From the NCBI RefSeq assembly GCF_057098645.1, contig NZ_CM169472.1: a DNA stretch of 64,000 nt, one strand, 5' to 3'. Each line of letters opens with the position of its first letter. The stretch's first letter is position 1. Below, one piece after another: positions 15,432 through 63,943 of the stretch. The translations under genes were made by a program, and so were the position numbers. Below the pieces are notes generated by a model. The model saw only the letters and a list, made by a program, of their open reading frames with translations, did no database searches and was not told the DNA's origin.

Positions 15432-16973
<1,542 letters not shown>

Positions 16974-17058
16974 CCTTAAAGAAGCGTTCTTTGAAGTGCT
17001 CACACAGATTGTCTGATAGAAAGTGAAAAGCAAGGCGTCTTGCGAAGCAGACTGATAC

Positions 17059-17134
17059 GTCCCCTTCGTCTAGAGGCCCAGGACACCGCCCTTTCACGGC
17101 GGTAACAGGGGTTCGAATCCCCTAGGGGACGCCA
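17059..17134 (+). tRNA. gltU: tRNA-Glu (anticodon UUC) in the 16S-23S spacer
   Basis: GTCCCCTTCGTCTAGAGG ... GGGGACGCCA, anticodon loop reads TTC. Confidence 0.95.
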
Positions 17135-17327
17135 CTTGCTGGTTTGTGAGTGAAAGTCACCTGCCTTAATATCTCAAAACTCATCTTCGGGTGATGTTTG
17201 AGATATTTGCTCTTTAAAAATCTGGATCAAGCTGAAAATTGAAACACTGAACAACGAGAGTTGTTCGTGAGTCTCTCAAATTTTCGCAACACGATGATGA
17301 ATCGCAAGAAACATCTTCGGGTTGTGA

Positions 17328-20232
<2,905 letters not shown>

Positions 20233-20324
20233 ACAACGCCGAAGCTGTTTTGGCGGATGAGAGAAGATTTTTAGCCTGATACAGATTAAATCAGAACGCA
20301 GAAGCGGTCTGATAAAACGGAATT

Positions 20325-20444
20325 TGCCTGGCGGCCGTAGCGCGGTGGTCCCACCTGACCCCATGCCGAACTCAGAAGTGAAACGCCGTAGCGCCGATGG
20401 TAGTGTGGGGTCTCCCCATGCGAGAGTAGGGAACTGCCAGGCAT
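20325..20444 (+). rRNA. rrfC: 5S ribosomal RNA
   Basis: TGCCTGGCGGCCGTAGCGCGGTGG ... GGGAACTGCCAGGCAT; 120 nt. Confidence 0.97.
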
Positions 20445-20496
20445 CAAATTAAGCAGTAAGCCGGTCATAAAACCGGTGGTTGTAAAAGAATTCGGT

Positions 20497-20573
20497 GGAG
20501 CGGTAGTTCAGTCGGTTAGAATACCTGCCTGTCACGCAGGGGGTCGCGGGTTCGAGTCCCGTCCGTTCCGCCA
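20497..20573 (+). tRNA. aspT: tRNA-Asp (anticodon GUC)
   Basis: GGAGCGGTAGTTCAGTCGG ... CCGTTCCGCCA, anticodon GTC. Confidence 0.95.
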
Positions 20574-20581
20574 CCCTAATT

Positions 20582-20657
20582 AGGGGCGTAGTTCAATTGG
20601 TAGAGCACCGGTCTCCAAAACCGGGTGTTGGGAGTTCGAGTCTCTCCGCCCCTGCCA
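20582..20657 (+). tRNA. trpT: tRNA-Trp (anticodon CCA)
   Basis: AGGGGCGTAGTTCAATTGG ... CCCCTGCCA, anticodon CCA. Confidence 0.95.
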
Positions 20658-23593: not shown

Positions 23594-23946
23594 AAGCCCT
23601 CCTTGAGTCACCATTATGTGCATAAGATATCGCTGCTGTAGCCCGCTAATTCGTGAATTTTAGTGGCTGATTCCTGTTTATTTGTGCAAGTGAAGTTGAG
23701 TTGTTCTGGCGGTGGAATGATGCTCGCAAAAATGCAGCGGACAAAGGATGAACTACGAGGAAGGGAACAACATTTATACTGAAATTGAATTTTTTTTCAC
23801 TCACTATTTTCTTTTTAAAAAACAACAATTTCTATTGAAATTATTAAAGCCATCATAAAAATCGGCCAAAAAATATCTTGTGCTATTCGCAAAATCTATG
23901 GTAACTCTTTAGGCATTCCTTCGAACAAGATGCAAGAAAAGACAAA

Positions 23947-24045
23947 ATGACAGCCCTTCTACGAGTGATTAGTCTGGTCGTGATTAGCGTGGTGGTGATT
24001 ATTATCCCACCGTGCGGGGCTGCACTTGGACGAGGAAAGGCTTAG
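23947..24045 (+). CDS. ilvL: ilv operon leader peptide
   Basis: 32-aa peptide MTALLRVISLVVISVVVIIIPPCGAALGRGKA, dense in Leu/Val/Ile codons. Confidence 0.95.
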   Translation: MTALLRVISLVVISVVVIIIPPCGAALGRGKA

Positions 24046-24067
24046 AGATCAAGCCTTAACGAACTAA

Positions 24068-24101
24068 GACCCCCGCACCGAAAGGTCCGGGGGTTTTTTT
24101 T
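24068..24101 (+). terminator. ilv attenuator (leader terminator)
   Basis: GC-rich hairpin (cccccgcacc-gaaa-ggtccggggg) followed by T8, directly after the ilvL stop. Confidence 0.85.
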
Positions 24102-24131
24102 GACCTTAAAAACATAACCGAGGAGCAGACA

Positions 24132-24182
24132 ATGAATAACAGCACAAAATTCTGTTTCTCAAGATTCAGGACGGGGAACTAA
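24132..24182 (+). CDS. ilvX: small protein IlvX (16 aa)
   Basis: [19 protein letters not shown] preceded by AGGAG Shine-Dalgarno, between the attenuator and ilvG. Confidence 0.6.
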
Positions 24183-40493: not shown

Positions 40494-40623
40494 AGTGTGG
40501 TAGAATATCAGCTTACTATTGCTTTACGAAAGCGTATCCGGTGAAATAAAGTCAACCTTTAGTTGGTTAATGTTACACCAACAACGAAACCAACACGCCA
40601 GGCTTATTCCTGTGGAGTTATAT

Positions 40624-40953
40624 ATGAGCGATAAAATTATTCACCTGACTGACGACAGTTTTGACACGGATGTACTCAAAGCGGACGGGGCGATCCTCGT
40701 CGATTTCTGGGCAGAGTGGTGCGGTCCGTGCAAAATGATCGCCCCGATTCTGGATGAAATCGCTGACGAATATCAGGGCAAACTGACCGTTGCAAAACTG
40801 AACATCGATCAAAACCCTGGCACTGCGCCGAAATATGGCATCCGTGGTATCCCGACTCTGCTGCTGTTCAAAAACGGTGAAGTGGCGGCAACCAAAGTGG
40901 GCGCACTGTCTAAAGGTCAGTTGAAAGAGTTCCTCGACGCTAACCTGGCGTAA
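40624..40953 (+). CDS. trxA: thioredoxin 1
   Basis: Start at [13 protein letters not shown], 109 aa, active site WCGPC. Confidence 0.97.
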
Positions 40954-57237: not shown

Positions 57238-57314
<77 letters not shown>

Positions 57315-57372
57315 TTTAGTCCCGGCGCTTGAGCTGCGGTGGTAGTAATACCGCGTAACAAGATTTGTAGTG

Positions 57373-57448
57373 GTGGCTATAGCTCAGTTGGTAGAGCCCT
57401 GGATTGTGATTCCAGTTGTCGTGGGTTCGAATCCCATTAGCCACCCCA
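57373..57448 (+). tRNA. hisR: tRNA-His (anticodon GUG)
   Basis: GGTGGCTATAGCTCAGTTGG ... TAGCCACCCCA, anticodon GTG. Confidence 0.95.
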
Positions 57449-57469
57449 TTATTAGAAGTTGTGACAATG

Positions 57470-57555
57470 CGAAGGTGGCGGAATTGGTAGACGCGCTAGC
57501 TTCAGGTGTTAGTGTCCTTACGGACGTGGGGGTTCAAGTCCCCCCCCTCGCACCA
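57470..57555 (+). tRNA. leuT: tRNA-Leu (anticodon CAG)
   Basis: GCGAAGGTGGCGGAATTGGTAGACGC ... CTCGCACCA with long variable arm, anticodon CAG. Confidence 0.93.
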
Positions 57556-57596
57556 CGACTTTAAAGAATTGAACTAAAAATTCAAAAAGCAGTATT

Positions 57597-57674
57597 TCGG
57601 CGAGTAGCGCAGCTTGGTAGCGCAACTGGTTTGGGACCAGTGGGTCGGAGGTTCGAATCCTCTCTCGCCGACCA
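57597..57674 (+). tRNA. proM: tRNA-Pro (anticodon UGG)
   Basis: CGGCGAGTAGCGCAGCTTGG ... CTCGCCGACCA, anticodon TGG. Confidence 0.93.
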
Positions 57675-59222: not shown

Positions 59223-60878
59223 TTAATCAGATTTAATCTGCGCGCGTGGTGGATATTTTTTCAGGATCTCCATATACGCGTGCATTTCGGTCTGTAGCGG
59301 TACACCCATCGGAATATGGCGCACGCCGATAGAGTCGCTCTCCTGCGGATCGGTGTACAGGTTAAACACCGACGATCCGGCTGTTTGCATTACTGTGCCG
59401 GTGAATCCACCCTGATATCCGCTCTGGGTATAAGCGTAAGGTTGCTGAATCAGGACGTGATACTTGAATTCATCCATACGCACAGCAGCGAGTTTACCGT
59501 TGAGGAAGTAGTGCTCGGCCTTACGGTTAGACTGACCATTTGTTCCCAGGAAGAAAGATGTCTGGTCCACACCATCGATAAAGGTGGTTTTCGGCACTAA
59601 ATTCGCCACTTTCGCGCCAGGATGCCCTGCCAGATCCAGCGCGGTAGGGAAGAGATCTGCCAGATCGACAATACCGTCAGATTTACGCGGTTGGATCATC
59701 CCTTTCCAGTACACGAAAGTCGGAACGCGAACGCCGCCTTCCCAGGTCGAACCTTTCGCACCACGGAACGGTGTGCGTCCGTGCGGCGGTACTTCGGCTT
59801 CCGGTCCGTTATCGGAGGTAAAGACAATCAGCGTGTTATCAAGCTGACCGTTTTTTTCCAGTGCTTTATACAGATTAGCGAACACATCGTTCATTTCCAC
59901 CATGCAGTCGCCATACGAGGTGCGTGCCGGAGAGCTACCCGCATATTTGGCGTTCGGGTAGTTATCGAAGTGACAGCCGCGAGTGCCGTAATAGAGGAAG
60001 AAAGGCTTATCACTCTTCGCCATCTTGTCGAGGAACTTAACGCCATATTCCATCCAGCGTTGATCCAGATCTTCCATATATTTCGGCGTAATGTCGGCAA
60101 TGGCCTGTTGTTCGCCGCCGCGCACCGCATGAACGTCATCTTTGCTAAATGGTAATTGCTTGATGTATTCAGAACGGTCCGGACTCAGGGCCACTTCCGG
60201 GTTTACGTGAACGTCGCGCCATTCGGTGTACATATCAGACACCGAGTTAAAGCCACGGAAATCATCAAAGCCAACGTTCTGCGGCTGCGACTCTTTGTTT
60301 TCCCCCATATGCCATTTCCCGATGGCCTGAGTGACGTAGCCCTGATCGTGCAGCAACTGCGGCAGCGTGGTTAACCCTTGCAGCCCGCCCGGTTGCCCAT
60401 ACATTGGCGGCATCAGAATGCCGTGGTGGATGGAGTATTGTCCGGTGAGAATAGTGGCGCGGGTTGGGGAAGAGCTTGGTTGAGAATACGCCGAAGTTAA
60501 AATCAGCCCCTGGCTGGCAACGGCGTCGATATCTGGTGTATGGTTACCCACTGCCACGCCGCCACCGTTAAAACCGACGTCCATCCAGCCCACATCGTCC
60601 AGCAAGAAAACAACCACATTCGGTTTCTTACCGGTTTTTTTCTCAAGTTCTGCCAGCTTCTGCTGGGTTTCTTTATCCTGCGCCGGATGCTGCATTACTG
60701 GCATCATGTTGTCGGCAATAGTGGTCGCCGGTTTAACCAGATACTGGTTTGGGTGATCGTATCCGGCAAAGCCTTTGCGTGCGGTGGCAGTTGACGGGGT
60801 ATCTGCTGCGCTGGCCATGAGAGGAAGAGCGGCGGCGACAGCAACAACAAGACGTTTGGGTGAAAACGAAAATTCCAT
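59223..60878 (-). CDS. aslA: arylsulfatase-like protein
   Basis: 551 aa with signal peptide and sulfatase signature S-S-P-T-R in [15 protein letters not shown]. Confidence 0.92.
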
Positions 60879-61302
60879 GCAAAATGCTCCGGTTTCATGT
60901 CATCAAAATGATGACGTAATTAAGCATTGATAATTGAGATCCCTCTCCCTGACAGGATGATTACATAAATAATAGTGATAAAAATAAATTATTTATTTAT
61001 CCAAGAAATGAATTTAAAAATCAGGAGAGCGTTTTCAATCCTACCTCTGGCACAGTTGATATGTAAGGCAGGTTTATTATATCGCGTTGATTATTGATGC
61101 TGTTTTTAGTTTTAACGGCAATTAATATATGTGTTATTAATTGAATGAATTTTATCATTCATAATAAGTATGTGTAGAATCAAGCTCAGGGTAAATATTC
61201 ACTCAGAAAGTTATTACTCAGGAAGCCAAGAGGATTACAGAATTATCTCATAACAAGTGTTAAGGGATGTTATTTCCCGATTCTCTGTGGCATAATAAAC
61301 GA

Positions 61303-61510
61303 GTAGATGCTCATTCCATCTCTTATGTTCGCCTTAGTGCCTCATAAACTCCGGAATGACGCAGAGCCGTTTACGGTGCTTATCGTCCACTGACAGATGT
61401 CGCTTATGCCTCATCAGACACCATGGACACAACGTTGAGTGAAGCACCCACTTGTTGTCATACAGACCTGTTTTAACGCCTGCTCCGTAATAAGAGCAGG
61501 CGTTTTTTTA
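61303..61510 (+). ncRNA. glmZ: small regulatory RNA GlmZ
   Basis: Sequence from GTAGATGCTCATTCCATCTC to the terminator hairpin GCCTGCTCCGTAATAAGAGCAGGCGTTTTTTT matches GlmZ as I recall it; no ORF; a -10-like CATAAT lies just upstream. Confidence 0.9.
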
Positions 61511-61556
61511 TGTGTCAGGAAGGCCCCGGAGGTGCTTGCCTCCGGGTGAGAAGGAA

Positions 61557-62753
61557 CTACTGTGGTGGGTTGTTCTGCAACGTTAACATCAAACCGTCGC
61601 GACGCATCGCTGCAGCTTCTTCCGGCTTGTGCAGTCTGTCCAGCGCGTCGGCAAGCCATGCGTAATCGTAGGCGTCCGGACGTTGTTTCAGCGCTGCGCG
61701 GAAGGCGAGCGATGCTTCCTGCCATTCTCCGTGCTTCATCAGTGACTGGCCCAGTGTGCTCCACAACAGCGGGCGATCGCCGACGTTTTTGATTTGCTGG
61801 CGCAGCACTTTTTCCAGCTGTTCCGGATTGTTTGTTTTCAGTCGAGGAATCGGCAGCAGTAGGCGATCGTCGTACTGGCGTTTCAGGCCATCGATGATAA
61901 TTTGCTGGGCAGTATCATGATCGTCACATTCAATAAGATGTTCCGCCATTGCCACCTGCAACGCTACCTGATGACGCGTTTTCCGGCTTTGGTTTTTCCA
62001 CCAGTTACGCAAACCTTCGCTACCGTTATCGGCACGCGCCTGATCCATCAGGCCAATCCATGCCTGTTGTTCCAGCATTGCACGATGTTCTTCATCACCA
62101 ACATGGGCTTTCGCCATTGATGGGATAATATCCAGCAGCGAACTCCATGCTCCTGTGCGGATATACGCCTGTTCCGCCAGACGTAATACTTCCGGATGGC
62201 GTGGCGTAACTTCCAGCAGCTTATCCACGCCGTGGCGTGCAGCATGGTTTTCATTACGGGCCAGTTGCAGACGTACACGGGTGATTTCTACCGGAATGGT
62301 GTCATTGCCGGCCAGCTCCGCTGCGCGTTCCAGATGTTGGTTGGCGCGCGCTTCATCACCACGTTGTTGCGCGGCTTCGGCAGCCAGTAGATAGTTCACC
62401 ACCGGTTGTTCAGCGTGATCGGCATTTTTCGCCATCAGCTTTTCAACTTGCTGATAATCGCCTTCCGCCAGTTTCAGCAGCGCCTGTTCGGTCTGCTTAC
62501 GTGCACGGCGACGCTTACGCCCGACAAACCACCCACGGGTGTGCGCGCCAGTGCGGAAGATCCGCCGCAGTAGCCACTCAATGGCAAACAGCACTACCAT
62601 CGCCAGAATCAATATGATCGCCAGGCCCGTGACGCTGGTTTCGATATTGTAGTTGTCGGTCTGGATCAGCACATAACCCTGATGATCGGCAATCATCGGG
62701 CCAACCACGATCCCCGCAATCAGCAACACAAAGAGCAATAACACTTTTAGCAT
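61557..62753 (-). CDS. hemY: HemY protein (TPR-containing inner-membrane protein)
   Basis: 398 aa with N-terminal transmembrane segments. Confidence 0.92.
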   Translation of the reverse strand: MLKVLLLFVLLIAGIVVGPMIADHQGYVLIQTDNYNIETSVTGLAIILILAMVVLFAIEWLLRRIFRTGAHTRGWFVGRKRRRARKQTEQALLKLAEGDYQQVEKLMAKNADHAEQPVVNYLLAAEAAQQRGDEARANQHLERAAELAGNDTIPVEITRVRLQLARNENHAARHGVDKLLEVTPRHPEVLRLAEQAYIRTGAWSSLLDIIPSMAKAHVGDEEHRAMLEQQAWIGLMDQARADNGSEGLRNWWKNQSRKTRHQVALQVAMAEHLIECDDHDTAQQIIIDGLKRQYDDRLLLPIPRLKTNNPEQLEKVLRQQIKNVGDRPLLWSTLGQSLMKHGEWQEASLAFRAALKQRPDAYDYAWLADALDRLHKPEEAAAMRRDGLMLTLQNNPPQ

Positions 62754-62755
62754 GG

Positions 62756-63943
62756 TTATTCTCCTTGCGGCGCGGCTGCCGGAGTATCAGCTTGCGGTGC
62801 AGGTGCAGGTGCAGGTTTGGCTTCCGTTGCCCCCGCTGCCGGTTGTGCCAGCAGGTTACGCACGCGAGTCTGCATCAGTTTTTCTAGCATCGTCTGGCTT
62901 TGCAGTGTTTCCGGGAGATCCATCGAAATACTTTGCTGACTTAACTGGTCCACCTCGTCGAGGAATGCTTTGGTCGTTGCATCTTCAGTATCGTAATAAG
63001 CACGAACCCAGGTGGAGACATTCTCCAGTGCCTGGCGGTAAGTCTCTTCCTGATGACGCGGCACAGCTTGTGCGGCGACCAGCAGACGGGAACGAATATT
63101 TTCGCGCAGATAGATATCCTGATTTGGCGCTAACAGCGGTACGGCGGTGTCATCACGACGGCGAATCGTAATGAAGTTGTCCATAAAGTTCTGCCAGCTT
63201 TTTTGCAGATTGATACGCCATTCGCTGATGGAACTGGAAAGCTCTTCACCGTCGGAATCCATCGGCGAACCATCGCTGTCATTATCGGCCAGACGCAGGT
63301 TATCTACCTGATTTGAAAGCTGATTAAGCTTAAGGATGATGCCGTCATAATCCACCTGCGATACTGCAGAAAGGCTGGCGATATCATCGGTAATTGCCCG
63401 ACGAACGGTAATCAGACTTGGGTCATTCATATCCGCCAGGCTGGCGTCTGCACTTTTCAGCAACGCTGCAGCGGTCGTGACGTCCTGATCGCTCCACAGC
63501 TTCCGTCCGGCGAGTTTCACCAGAAAATCGGCCTGAGCCAGCAGCCAGGTTTTAGCATCGCTGCCGGAAATGGTGGCGACCTTTTGTTGGACTTCATCCA
63601 ACTGTTTTGCCAGCGTTTCTTGCTGACGATTCGCCTGTTCAAGCTGTGCAGCTTGTTGCTTGATAATGCCTTCCAGCTCGGCTTTTTGGCTCTCCTGGGC
63701 TTTTTGCAGCGCCGTGAGTTGGCTTGCCAGGGCATCGCTGGTGGCAGTCTGACTGACGGCCTGTTGTTTACCCCAGCCATACAACCCGACGCCTGCTGCC
63801 AGAGCAATGGCGATAGCCACCGCACTGAGAATCAGAGCGGTACTGTTCTTACTCTTCTTTTCTGCAACGACAGGTTGTGGCGTGGTGTCCACGGCCTCCC
63901 TGGTATCTTCAACCACGGCGGAGGTTTTTTCTTGTTCCGTCAT
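62756..63943 (-). CDS. hemX: HemX protein (membrane-anchored, coiled-coil, Pro/Ala-rich tail)
   Basis: 395-aa ORF; start overlaps the upstream stop codon (TAATG). Confidence 0.9.

What the first reader, a model, noticed from the sequence alone, without database searches (positions are those of the whole stretch)
61303..61510. GlmZ small RNA between aslA and hemY
A roughly 208-nt non-coding stretch that no ORF explains, ending in a strong intrinsic terminator, matches the GlmZ sRNA, which activates glmS translation and is handled by RapZ and RNase E. It is a known element, but it is the main regulatory RNA in the window and is invisible to ORF-based annotation.
Basis: partly seen in the sequence, partly recalled or inferred. 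Interest (0 to 1): 0.3.

Follow-up and report, generated by a model that had tools for sequence, protein, structure and literature searches.

The report
GlmZ small RNA gene, confirmed

Summary
The finding is correct and ordinary. Window 61303-61509 (+) matches Rfam RF00083 GlmZ_SraJ end to end (218.4 bits, threshold 60, E 3.4e-56). It is 100% identical to glmZ (b4456) of E. coli K-12, and so is the 75 nt upstream that holds the promoter. It lies between aslA (59223-60878, -) and hemY (61557-62753, -) and ends in an 11-bp terminator hairpin followed by seven T. At least 99% identical copies occur in 5424 of 5426 complete E. coli genomes.

An alignment of 31 species supports the three-stem-loop fold: 99.5% of cells are paired, and 18 of 45 pairs show compensatory changes against 6.9 in shuffles. 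The 26-nt single-stranded region pairs with the glmS leader (-41 to -21) of the closest genome and covers the strand that masks the ribosome-binding site.

The promoter is the sigma-70-only Escherichia type. The sigma-54 -24/-12 core seen in 102 of 117 other Enterobacterales loci is absent.

RapZ/RNase E cleavage, Hfq binding and GlmY decoy control are carried over from K-12 experiments by sequence identity. They were not tested here.

Novelty: already known. Interest: low.

The parts
61267..61272 (+). Candidate -35 hexamer (ATGTTA, 3 of 6 matches to TTGACA, 18-nt spacer) of the glmZ sigma-70 promoter. The assignment is tentative.
   Evidence: Sequence read. PMC3045617 reports a -35 motif with three consensus bases whose mutation strongly reduces expression, and that sequence upstream of -40 is dispensable. 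The region is identical to K-12. The simple promoter scan did not flag it.
61288..61296 (+). Extended -10 element: TG at 61288-61289, then CATAAT at 61291-61296, ending at -7 relative to the start at 61303.
   Evidence: It is identical to K-12, where mutating the -10 motif abolished expression (PMC3045617). No sigma-54 GG/GC core sits at -24/-12.
61303..61509 (+). glmZ, the full-length 207-nt primary transcript.
   Evidence: Rfam RF00083 at 218.4 bits, E 3.4e-56, model positions 1-214. 100% identical to K-12. At least 99% identical in 5424 of 5426 complete E. coli genomes. The minimum-free-energy fold is -60.8 kcal/mol, z-score -3.33.
61308..61363 (+). Stem-loop 1 (GlmZ nt 6-61). In K-12 this is one of the two stem-loops bound by RapZ.
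   Evidence: Minimum-free-energy fold and RNAalifold helices 1-3. The pair at columns 13/70 switches from U-A to C-G in 8 of 31 species. The RapZ contact comes from the cryoEM study PMC9841335.
61375..61448 (+). Stem-loop 2, the central stem-loop (GlmZ nt 73-146). In K-12 it is the module recognised by RapZ and RNase E that decides cleavage.
   Evidence: Rfam and alifold helices 4-6. Six of the seven basal pairs show compensatory changes. The function comes from PMC4737144 and PMC9841335.
61449..61474 (+). The 26-nt single-stranded region (GlmZ nt 147-172). It holds the glmS pairing site (61451-61472) and the RNase E cleavage positions, which would map to about 61453-61457 by GlmZ numbering (mapped at nt 151-158 on artificial substrates; processed GlmZ was earlier reported as 155 nt).
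   Evidence: The duplex with glmS -41..-21 is -19.2 kcal/mol, reached by 21 of 1000 shuffles. The length and role of this region come from PMC4737144.
61475..61509 (+). Stem-loop 3, the intrinsic terminator (stem 61475-61504), followed by a T-run (61503-61509). In K-12 the 3' oligo-U is also an Hfq contact.
   Evidence: Terminator scan. Alifold helix 9 has 7 of 9 pairs with compensatory changes. The Hfq role comes from PMC4737144.

Best explanation
This is glmZ, the gene for the trans-acting small RNA GlmZ (formerly SraJ/RyiA), in an E. coli chromosome closest to O145:H28 strains.

Shown here:
- A 207-nt unit with its own start, a three-stem-loop fold and an intrinsic terminator, lying convergent to hemY.
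- A single-stranded region (nt 147-172) whose nt 149-170 are complementary in two blocks to the glmS leader at -41 to -21. That is the strand which otherwise pairs with and masks the glmS ribosome-binding site.
- A promoter region of the Escherichia sigma-70-only type.

Inferred from K-12 experiments, because the RNA and its promoter are base-for-base identical:
- With Hfq, full-length GlmZ pairs with the glmS leader, frees the ribosome-binding site and raises synthesis of GlcN6P synthase.
- When GlcN6P is plentiful, the adaptor RapZ binds stem-loops 1 and 2 and presents the single-stranded region to RNase E. RNase E cuts within the pairing site and leaves an inactive species of about 151-155 nt.
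- When GlcN6P is scarce, the homologous decoy RNA GlmY sequesters RapZ and full-length GlmZ accumulates.
- In EHEC O157:H7, GlmY/GlmZ additionally affect LEE4/LEE5 and espFu. That may apply in this O145:H28-like background but was not examined.
For: - Rfam RF00083, full length, 218.4 bits against a threshold of 60.
- 100% identity to K-12 from -75 to +207. K-12 annotates the locus as ncRNA glmZ, b4456.
- At least 99% identical in 5424 of 5426 complete E. coli genomes, while most genomes match the surrounding 12 kb at only 95-99%.
- Terminator: 11 pairs followed by a T-run.
- Fold z-score -3.33.
- On 31 Enterobacterales orthologues, 45 consensus pairs are 99.5% paired. Eighteen pairs show compensatory changes against 6.9 +/- 1.2 in shuffles (0 of 500 shuffles reach 18) and 1-4 in slid controls.
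- The single-stranded region pairs with the glmS leader of the closest genome at -19.2 kcal/mol, over -41..-21. The leader alone folds so that UUGACCGA (-35..-28) pairs with the UCGG..UCAA segment just upstream of the AUG.
- hemY lies convergent downstream in 103 of 109 orthologous loci that have enough sequence.
- The promoter class matches the experimentally defined E. coli type (PMC3045617).
- Mechanism literature: PMC4737144, PMC9841335, PMC3903284.
Against: Nothing contradicts it, but there are limits.
- No expression data exist for this strain.
- glmS, rapZ, rne, hfq and glmY lie outside the window. Only the glmS leader was fetched, and from the closest genome, RM12761, which is not identical to the window strain.
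- The pairing energy of the single-stranded region is only moderately unusual: 21 of 1000 shuffles do as well.
- The simple sigma-70 scan did not flag the promoter, because its -35 is weak.
- The alignment was retrieved with a pattern that forces GlmZ nt 3-12 and 129-140 to be invariant, so those columns carry no information.
Confidence: 0.97

Rival explanations
1. It is the paralogous decoy RNA GlmY rather than GlmZ. It would bind RapZ but not pair with glmS.
For: GlmY and GlmZ are homologous, share the Rfam clan CL00011 and have the same three-stem-loop layout. A lower-scoring overlapping match from the same clan was suppressed.
Against: Within the clan the best-scoring family is GlmZ_SraJ, at 218.4 bits and full length. 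The single-stranded region is 26 nt long and complementary to glmS; GlmY has a 12-nt region with no such complementarity (PMC4737144). The gene sits next to hemY, the conserved glmZ context (PMC3045617). The sequence is identical to K-12 glmZ.
Confidence: 0.01
2. The stretch is not an independent gene. It would be a 3' or 5' untranslated region, a small protein-coding ORF, or antisense spill-over from hemY or aslA transcription.
For: Mechanical ORFs of 36, 37 and 116 aa overlap it. hemY has no canonical intrinsic terminator of its own before the glmZ terminator, so convergent transcripts may overlap its 3' end.
Against: Substitutions across 31 species are compensatory in the stems, and indels of assorted lengths fall in the loops. 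That is the pattern of a structured RNA, not of codons. The orthologues all begin with the same GTAGATGCTCAT immediately downstream of a positioned sigma-54 or sigma-70 promoter and end in a terminator. The promoter was defined by deletion and point mutation in K-12 on identical sequence (PMC3045617).
Confidence: 0.01
3. The gene is intact but regulated differently from K-12 in this lineage, because of the 10 substitutions in the upstream aslA-glmZ spacer or because of extra EHEC targets.
For: There are ten differences from K-12 between 60979 and 61227 and one at 61514. In EHEC O157:H7, GlmY/GlmZ also act on LEE4/LEE5 and espFu (PMC3903284). The window is closest to O145:H28 strains.
Against: All differences lie upstream of -75. 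In K-12, sequence upstream of -40 is dispensable for promoter activity (PMC3045617). The RNA itself is unchanged. This is an addition to the main explanation rather than an alternative to it.
Confidence: 0.15

Closest known systems
GlmZ (SraJ/RyiA) of E. coli K-12, gene b4456; Rfam RF00083 GlmZ_SraJ
   Same: All 207 nt are identical, as are the 75 nt upstream. The flanking genes aslA and hemY, the terminator and the glmS pairing site are the same.
   Different: Nothing differs in the RNA. Ten substitutions lie further upstream in the spacer and one lies 5 nt past the terminator. The K-12 RefSeq feature covers only 172 nt and stops before the terminator hairpin, whereas the Rfam match and the terminator give 207 nt.
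GlmY (Tke1/SroF), Rfam clan CL00011
   Same: A homologous three-stem-loop RNA that RapZ also binds (PMC4737144).
   Different: GlmY has a short 12-nt single-stranded region with no complementarity to glmS. RNase E/RapZ does not cleave it, and it acts as a decoy. The element here has the 26-nt glmS-complementary region.
glmZ of Yersinia, Salmonella and most other Enterobacterales
   Same: An orthologous RNA with the same fold and a convergent hemY downstream.
   Different: Those genes carry a sigma-54 promoter (TGGCAC-N5-TGCA starting at -27). In Yersinia and Salmonella it was shown to depend on GlrR/QseF (PMC3045617). It occurs with an overlapping -10-like element in 43 of 117 loci and without one in 59. 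The window belongs to the 15 of 117 with no sigma-54 core, the class shown to be sigma-70-only and constitutive in E. coli (PMC3045617).

Membership tests
GlmZ_SraJ (RF00083) | Covariance-model score at or above the curated gathering score, over the full model. | tested here: met
   218.4 bits against 60, model positions 1-214 of 214, E 3.4e-56. It is the best match among the clan CL00011 families.
GlmZ_SraJ (RF00083) | Three stem-loops: SL1, the long central SL2, and an SL3 terminator with a 3' oligo-U. | tested here: met
   Minimum-free-energy fold and RNAalifold on 31 species. 99.5% of cells are paired and 18 pairs show compensatory change, with 0 of 500 shuffles reaching that. Terminator confirmed.
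GlmZ_SraJ (RF00083) | A single-stranded region between SL2 and SL3 that is complementary to the glmS 5' leader (the anti-SD strand). | tested here: met
   GlmZ nt 149-170 pair with glmS -41..-21 at -19.2 kcal/mol; 21 of 1000 shuffles do as well. The leader was taken from the closest genome, RM12761. It is identical to K-12 from the AUG back to about -145; two substitutions lie further upstream. glmS itself lies outside the window.
GlmZ_SraJ (RF00083) | Genomic context: convergent with the hemCDXY cluster. | tested here: met
   hemY lies at 61557-62753 (-) and hemX at 62756-63943 (-). The same arrangement holds in 103 of 109 orthologous loci with enough downstream sequence.
GlmZ_SraJ (RF00083) | Its own promoter. 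In Escherichia this is a single constitutive sigma-70 promoter without sigma-54 or GlrR elements. | tested here: met
   The sequence from -75 to +1 is identical to K-12. An extended -10, TGgCATAAT, is present. No GG/GC core sits at -24/-12. Promoter activity itself is known only from K-12 experiments (PMC3045617).
GlmZ_SraJ (RF00083) | RapZ-dependent cleavage by RNase E in the single-stranded region, giving an inactive species of about 151-155 nt. | not testable with these tools
   Carried over by 100% RNA identity to the K-12 molecule used in PMC4737144 and PMC9841335. I did not check that rapZ and rne are present in this strain.
GlmZ_SraJ (RF00083) | Hfq-dependent activation of glmS translation; a discrete transcript in vivo. 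| not testable with these tools
   This needs a Northern blot or RNA-seq and a glmS reporter in this strain. In K-12 the Hfq contacts are the oligo-U tail and the single-stranded region (PMC4737144), and both are present unchanged.
GlmY_tke1 (clan CL00011) | A short (about 12-nt) single-stranded region with no complementarity to glmS. | tested here: not met
   The single-stranded region here is 26 nt and pairs with glmS. The GlmY criterion comes from PMC4737144.

The most novel reading that the evidence does not exclude
hemY is followed only by a hairpin without a U-run (61524-61546), and the next hairpin on its strand is the reverse side of the glmZ terminator. hemCDXY transcripts may therefore end in, or read through, the 3' part of glmZ in antisense. 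That would couple transcription of the haem operon to GlmZ termination or stability. Nothing here tests this.
Probability: 0.05. Interest if true: 0.3.

Novelty: already known. Interest (0 to 1): 0.07.

Why it matters
GlmZ is a textbook case of RNA-based feedback control. It activates glmS and so controls the supply of the cell-envelope precursor. Its adaptor-guided cleavage by RNase E has been solved structurally, and in EHEC it also affects attachment genes. Confirming it here adds no new biology. The practical point is about annotation: automatic RefSeq annotation leaves the gene unmarked in the records checked, so scans that rely on ORFs or on standard annotation will keep reporting this spacer as empty.

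Tried and rejected
1. RNAduplex of the whole 207-nt RNA against the glmS leader was uninformative. It gave -53.8 kcal/mol against a shuffle mean of -55.2, and 585 of 1000 shuffles did as well, because unrestricted interior loops dominate. I restricted the test to the single-stranded region.

2. Projecting the Rfam consensus structure onto the E. coli sequence gave non-canonical pairs in stem-loop 1, for example C14-A53 and U22-U40. The Rfam register there disagrees with the minimum-free-energy fold and with RNAalifold. I used the RNAalifold structure for the covariation test.

3. The simple sigma-70 scan did not flag the glmZ promoter, which has a weak -35. The promoter assignment rests on identity to the experimentally mapped K-12 promoter.

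4. From collinearity with RM12761 I guessed that oriC lay near the start of the window. This was rejected: there are no DnaA boxes, 13-mers or GATC cluster in the first 2 kb.

5. Longest-ORF counts in the orthologues (25-62 aa) were uninformative.

6. A SNORA68 match on the minus strand (21.5 bits against a threshold of 43, E 0.19) is chance.

Full report
**Observation.** The window was read at 60900-61900 and scanned against all Rfam families. Family RF00083 (GlmZ_SraJ) matches 61303-61509 on the + strand over the whole model (positions 1-214). The score is 218.4 bits against a gathering score of 60, with E 3.4e-56. A permissive rescan of 60800-61700 found nothing else except a chance-level SNORA68 match (21.5 bits, E 0.19).

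Only short mechanical ORFs overlap the stretch: 37 aa and 116 aa on the - strand and 36 aa on the + strand. The flanking long ORFs are 59223-60878 (-, 551 aa) and 61557-62753 (-, 398 aa). In K-12 and in O145:H28 strain RM12761 these are annotated as aslA and hemY.

The terminator has a stem at 61475-61504 with 11 pairs (7 G-C), an 8-nt loop and a T-run. It is the only terminator-like site on either strand in 60800-61700. The 207-nt RNA folds at -60.8 kcal/mol, against -46.9 +/- 4.2 for dinucleotide shuffles (z -3.33).

**Identity with the known gene.** Aligning the whole aslA-hemY spacer with K-12 MG1655 shows no difference from -75 to +207 relative to the glmZ start. Ten substitutions lie further upstream (60979-61227) and one lies at 61514. 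K-12 annotates the locus as ncRNA glmZ, b4456, 'small regulatory RNA GlmZ'. That feature is only 172 nt long and stops just before the terminator hairpin.

The 207 nt are at least 99% identical in 5424 of 5426 complete E. coli genomes. Most genomes match the surrounding 12 kb at only 95-99%. The window is closest to O145:H28 strains such as RM12761 and RM13516, though it is not identical to RM12761.

None of the 15 sampled RefSeq records has a feature under the match, and the RM12761 annotation has nothing between aslA and hemY.

**Structure, tested independently of Rfam.** One scan of the species-representative genome collection used a pattern built from two conserved GlmZ blocks. I aligned 31 orthologues from different genera with the window.

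RNAalifold predicts stem-loop 1, the long central stem-loop 2, a small 3-bp hairpin inside the single-stranded region, and the terminator, 45 pairs in all. On this structure:
- 99.5% of cells form standard pairs.
- 18 pairs carry changes on both sides, against 6.9 +/- 1.2 in column shuffles (0 of 500 shuffles reach 18).
- Sliding the 3' partners by 1-3 columns leaves only 1-4 such pairs and 30-45% pairing.

There is a caveat. The retrieval pattern forces GlmZ nt 3-12 and 129-140 to be invariant, so those columns say nothing. The covarying pairs lie elsewhere: the base of stem-loop 2, the terminator, and the inner part of stem-loop 1.

The Rfam consensus structure disagrees in register with this structure and with the minimum-free-energy fold in stem-loop 1. 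That is a flaw in the family's structure annotation, not in the match.

**Target complementarity.** glmS is not in the window. I took its leader from RM12761. It is identical to K-12 from the start codon back to about -145. The 26-nt single-stranded region (GlmZ nt 147-172, window 61449-61474) pairs through nt 149-170 with glmS -41 to -21 in two blocks, CAGGU with ACCUG and GACAAC with GUUGUC. The energy is -19.2 kcal/mol, and 21 of 1000 shuffles of the region do as well.

Folded alone, the leader pairs UUGACCGA (-35 to -28) with the UCGG..UCAA segment just upstream of the AUG. GlmZ therefore binds the strand that otherwise masks the ribosome-binding site. This is the published anti-antisense activation mechanism (abstracts of PMC4737144 and PMC4152352; PMC3903284).

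**Context and promoter.** hemY lies convergent downstream of glmZ in 103 of 109 orthologous loci with enough sequence. aslA lies upstream in only 6. This matches the published statement that glmZ clusters with hemCDXY while the upstream side varies (PMC3045617).

Anchoring all loci at the shared start GTAGATGC gives three promoter classes:

| Class | Loci (of 117) |
|---|---|
| Sigma-54 core (TGGCAC-N5-TGCA from -27) with no -10-like element | 59 |
| Sigma-54 core with an overlapping -10-like element | 43 |
| No sigma-54 core, -10-like element present | 15 |

The third class includes every Escherichia locus and all six loci with aslA upstream; the window itself shows the same pattern. These are the three groups of PMC3045617. 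That paper showed by reporter fusions, EMSA, deletions and point mutations that E. coli glmZ is driven by a single constitutive sigma-70 promoter, independent of GlrR and sigma-54, and needs nothing upstream of -40.

In the window the -10 element is TG-g-CATAAT (61288-61296). The best three-match -35 candidate is ATGTTA (61267-61272). The -35 assignment is tentative, and the simple scan did not flag the promoter.

**Mechanism, and what is shown versus inferred.** The gene, its fold, its terminator, its promoter class and its complementarity to glmS are shown here. The following are inferred from K-12 work on an identical RNA:
- Hfq binds the oligo-U tail and the single-stranded region and favours pairing (PMC4737144).
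- The RapZ tetramer binds stem-loops 1 and 2, and stem-loop 2 is the decisive module for cleavage (PMC4737144; PMC9841335).
- RNase E cuts within the single-stranded region (PMC4737144; PMC9841335). The positions were mapped at nt 151-158 on artificial substrates carrying the GlmZ SL1/SL2 module, mostly at 152/153 and 153/154, and processed GlmZ was earlier reported as 155 nt (PMC4737144). Cleavage removes the seed.
- GlmY sequesters RapZ when GlcN6P is low (abstracts).

In EHEC O157:H7, GlmY/GlmZ also destabilise LEE transcripts and promote EspFu translation (PMC3903284). Because the window resembles O145:H28, this may apply here, but I did not examine it.

**Rivals.** GlmY is excluded by the clan-best Rfam assignment, the 26-nt glmS-complementary region, the hemY context and identity to K-12 glmZ. 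A coding or UTR reading is excluded by the RNA-type substitution pattern, the shared 5' end behind a positioned promoter and the terminator. A lineage-specific change in regulation is possible only through substitutions upstream of -75, which K-12 deletion analysis suggests are irrelevant.

**Verdict.** The finding is a correct identification of a known element. Novelty: already known. Interest: low.

Noticed in passing
window 61524-61546: A G+C-rich hairpin (CCCCGGAGG-N6-CCTCCGGG, -18.9 kcal/mol as part of the + strand fold) sits between the glmZ terminator and the hemY stop codon. On the - strand it follows hemY by about 10 nt and has no U-run. The next - strand hairpin is the reverse side of the glmZ terminator, followed only by UUAAAAC. 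hemY therefore has no canonical intrinsic terminator in 60800-61700, and its transcripts may overlap the glmZ 3' end.
   Followed up: partly
window 61262-61302; loci L004-L123: Promoter turnover at glmZ. Of 117 orthologous loci, 102 keep a sigma-54 GG/GC core at -24/-12 and 15 have lost it, and all 15 have a -10-like element. All six loci with aslA immediately upstream (Escherichia, Superficieibacter electus, Kluyvera genomosp. 1, Pseudocitrobacter) are among the 15. This is consistent with the three groups in PMC3045617. I did not look in the paper for the link with aslA adjacency.
   Followed up: partly
window 61303-61509; L001 2933-3104; L124 8880-9557: RefSeq automatic annotation shows no feature for glmZ in any of the 15 sampled records or in RM12761. 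The curated K-12 feature is 172 nt and ends before the terminator hairpin, whereas the Rfam match and the terminator give 207 nt.
   Followed up: yes
alignment A3 columns 1-80 (GlmZ nt 13-53): In stem-loop 1 the Rfam RF00083 consensus structure is out of register with the minimum-free-energy fold and the RNAalifold consensus. Projected onto E. coli it gives non-canonical pairs such as C14-A53, C20-U43 and U22-U40 (compared).
   Followed up: partly
alignment A3 columns 184-189 (L006, L017, L021, L032, L035, L039, L060): In Photorhabdus, Xenorhabdus, Providencia, Arsenophonus, Morganella, Proteus and Moellerella the single-stranded region lacks the UGUU of the UGUUGUC block and instead has a longer GAUUGUA tail after AGACCUG. 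The glmS pairing may be arranged differently in that group.
   Followed up: no
alignment A3 columns 33-47 (L013, L069; also L026): The two Yersinia GlmZ orthologues carry an insertion of about 15 nt in the apical loop of stem-loop 1. Budvicia has a shorter insertion at the same place.
   Followed up: no
window 62756-63943 (hemX): hemX varies in length: 395 aa here, 393 aa in K-12 and 407 aa in RM12761, a difference of 36 nt from the window. A GGTGCA hexamer repeat (3.5 copies) lies at 62796-62816. I did not locate the indel.
   Followed up: partly
window 23876-24165: There is a full-length Rfam match to Rev39_5p_UTR (158.8 bits against a threshold of 88). It contains a strong hairpin followed by a U-run (CCCCCGCACCGAAAGGUCCGGGGGUUUUUU), which looks like a leader/attenuator. 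I did not check the downstream gene.
   Followed up: no
window 15432-20657 and 57238-57674: A complete rRNA operon is present, with tRNA-Glu in the spacer, a StyR-44 match (17212-17320) just before the 23S gene, and tRNA-Asp and tRNA-Trp after the 5S gene. Separately there is a tRNA cluster Arg(CCG)-His-Leu(CAG)-Pro(UGG). A TrxA 5' UTR thermometer match lies at 40554-40653.
   Followed up: no
E. coli genome collection: Two of 5426 complete E. coli genomes give no glmZ match. One genome has a second copy, and that copy lies on a plasmid record.
   Followed up: no
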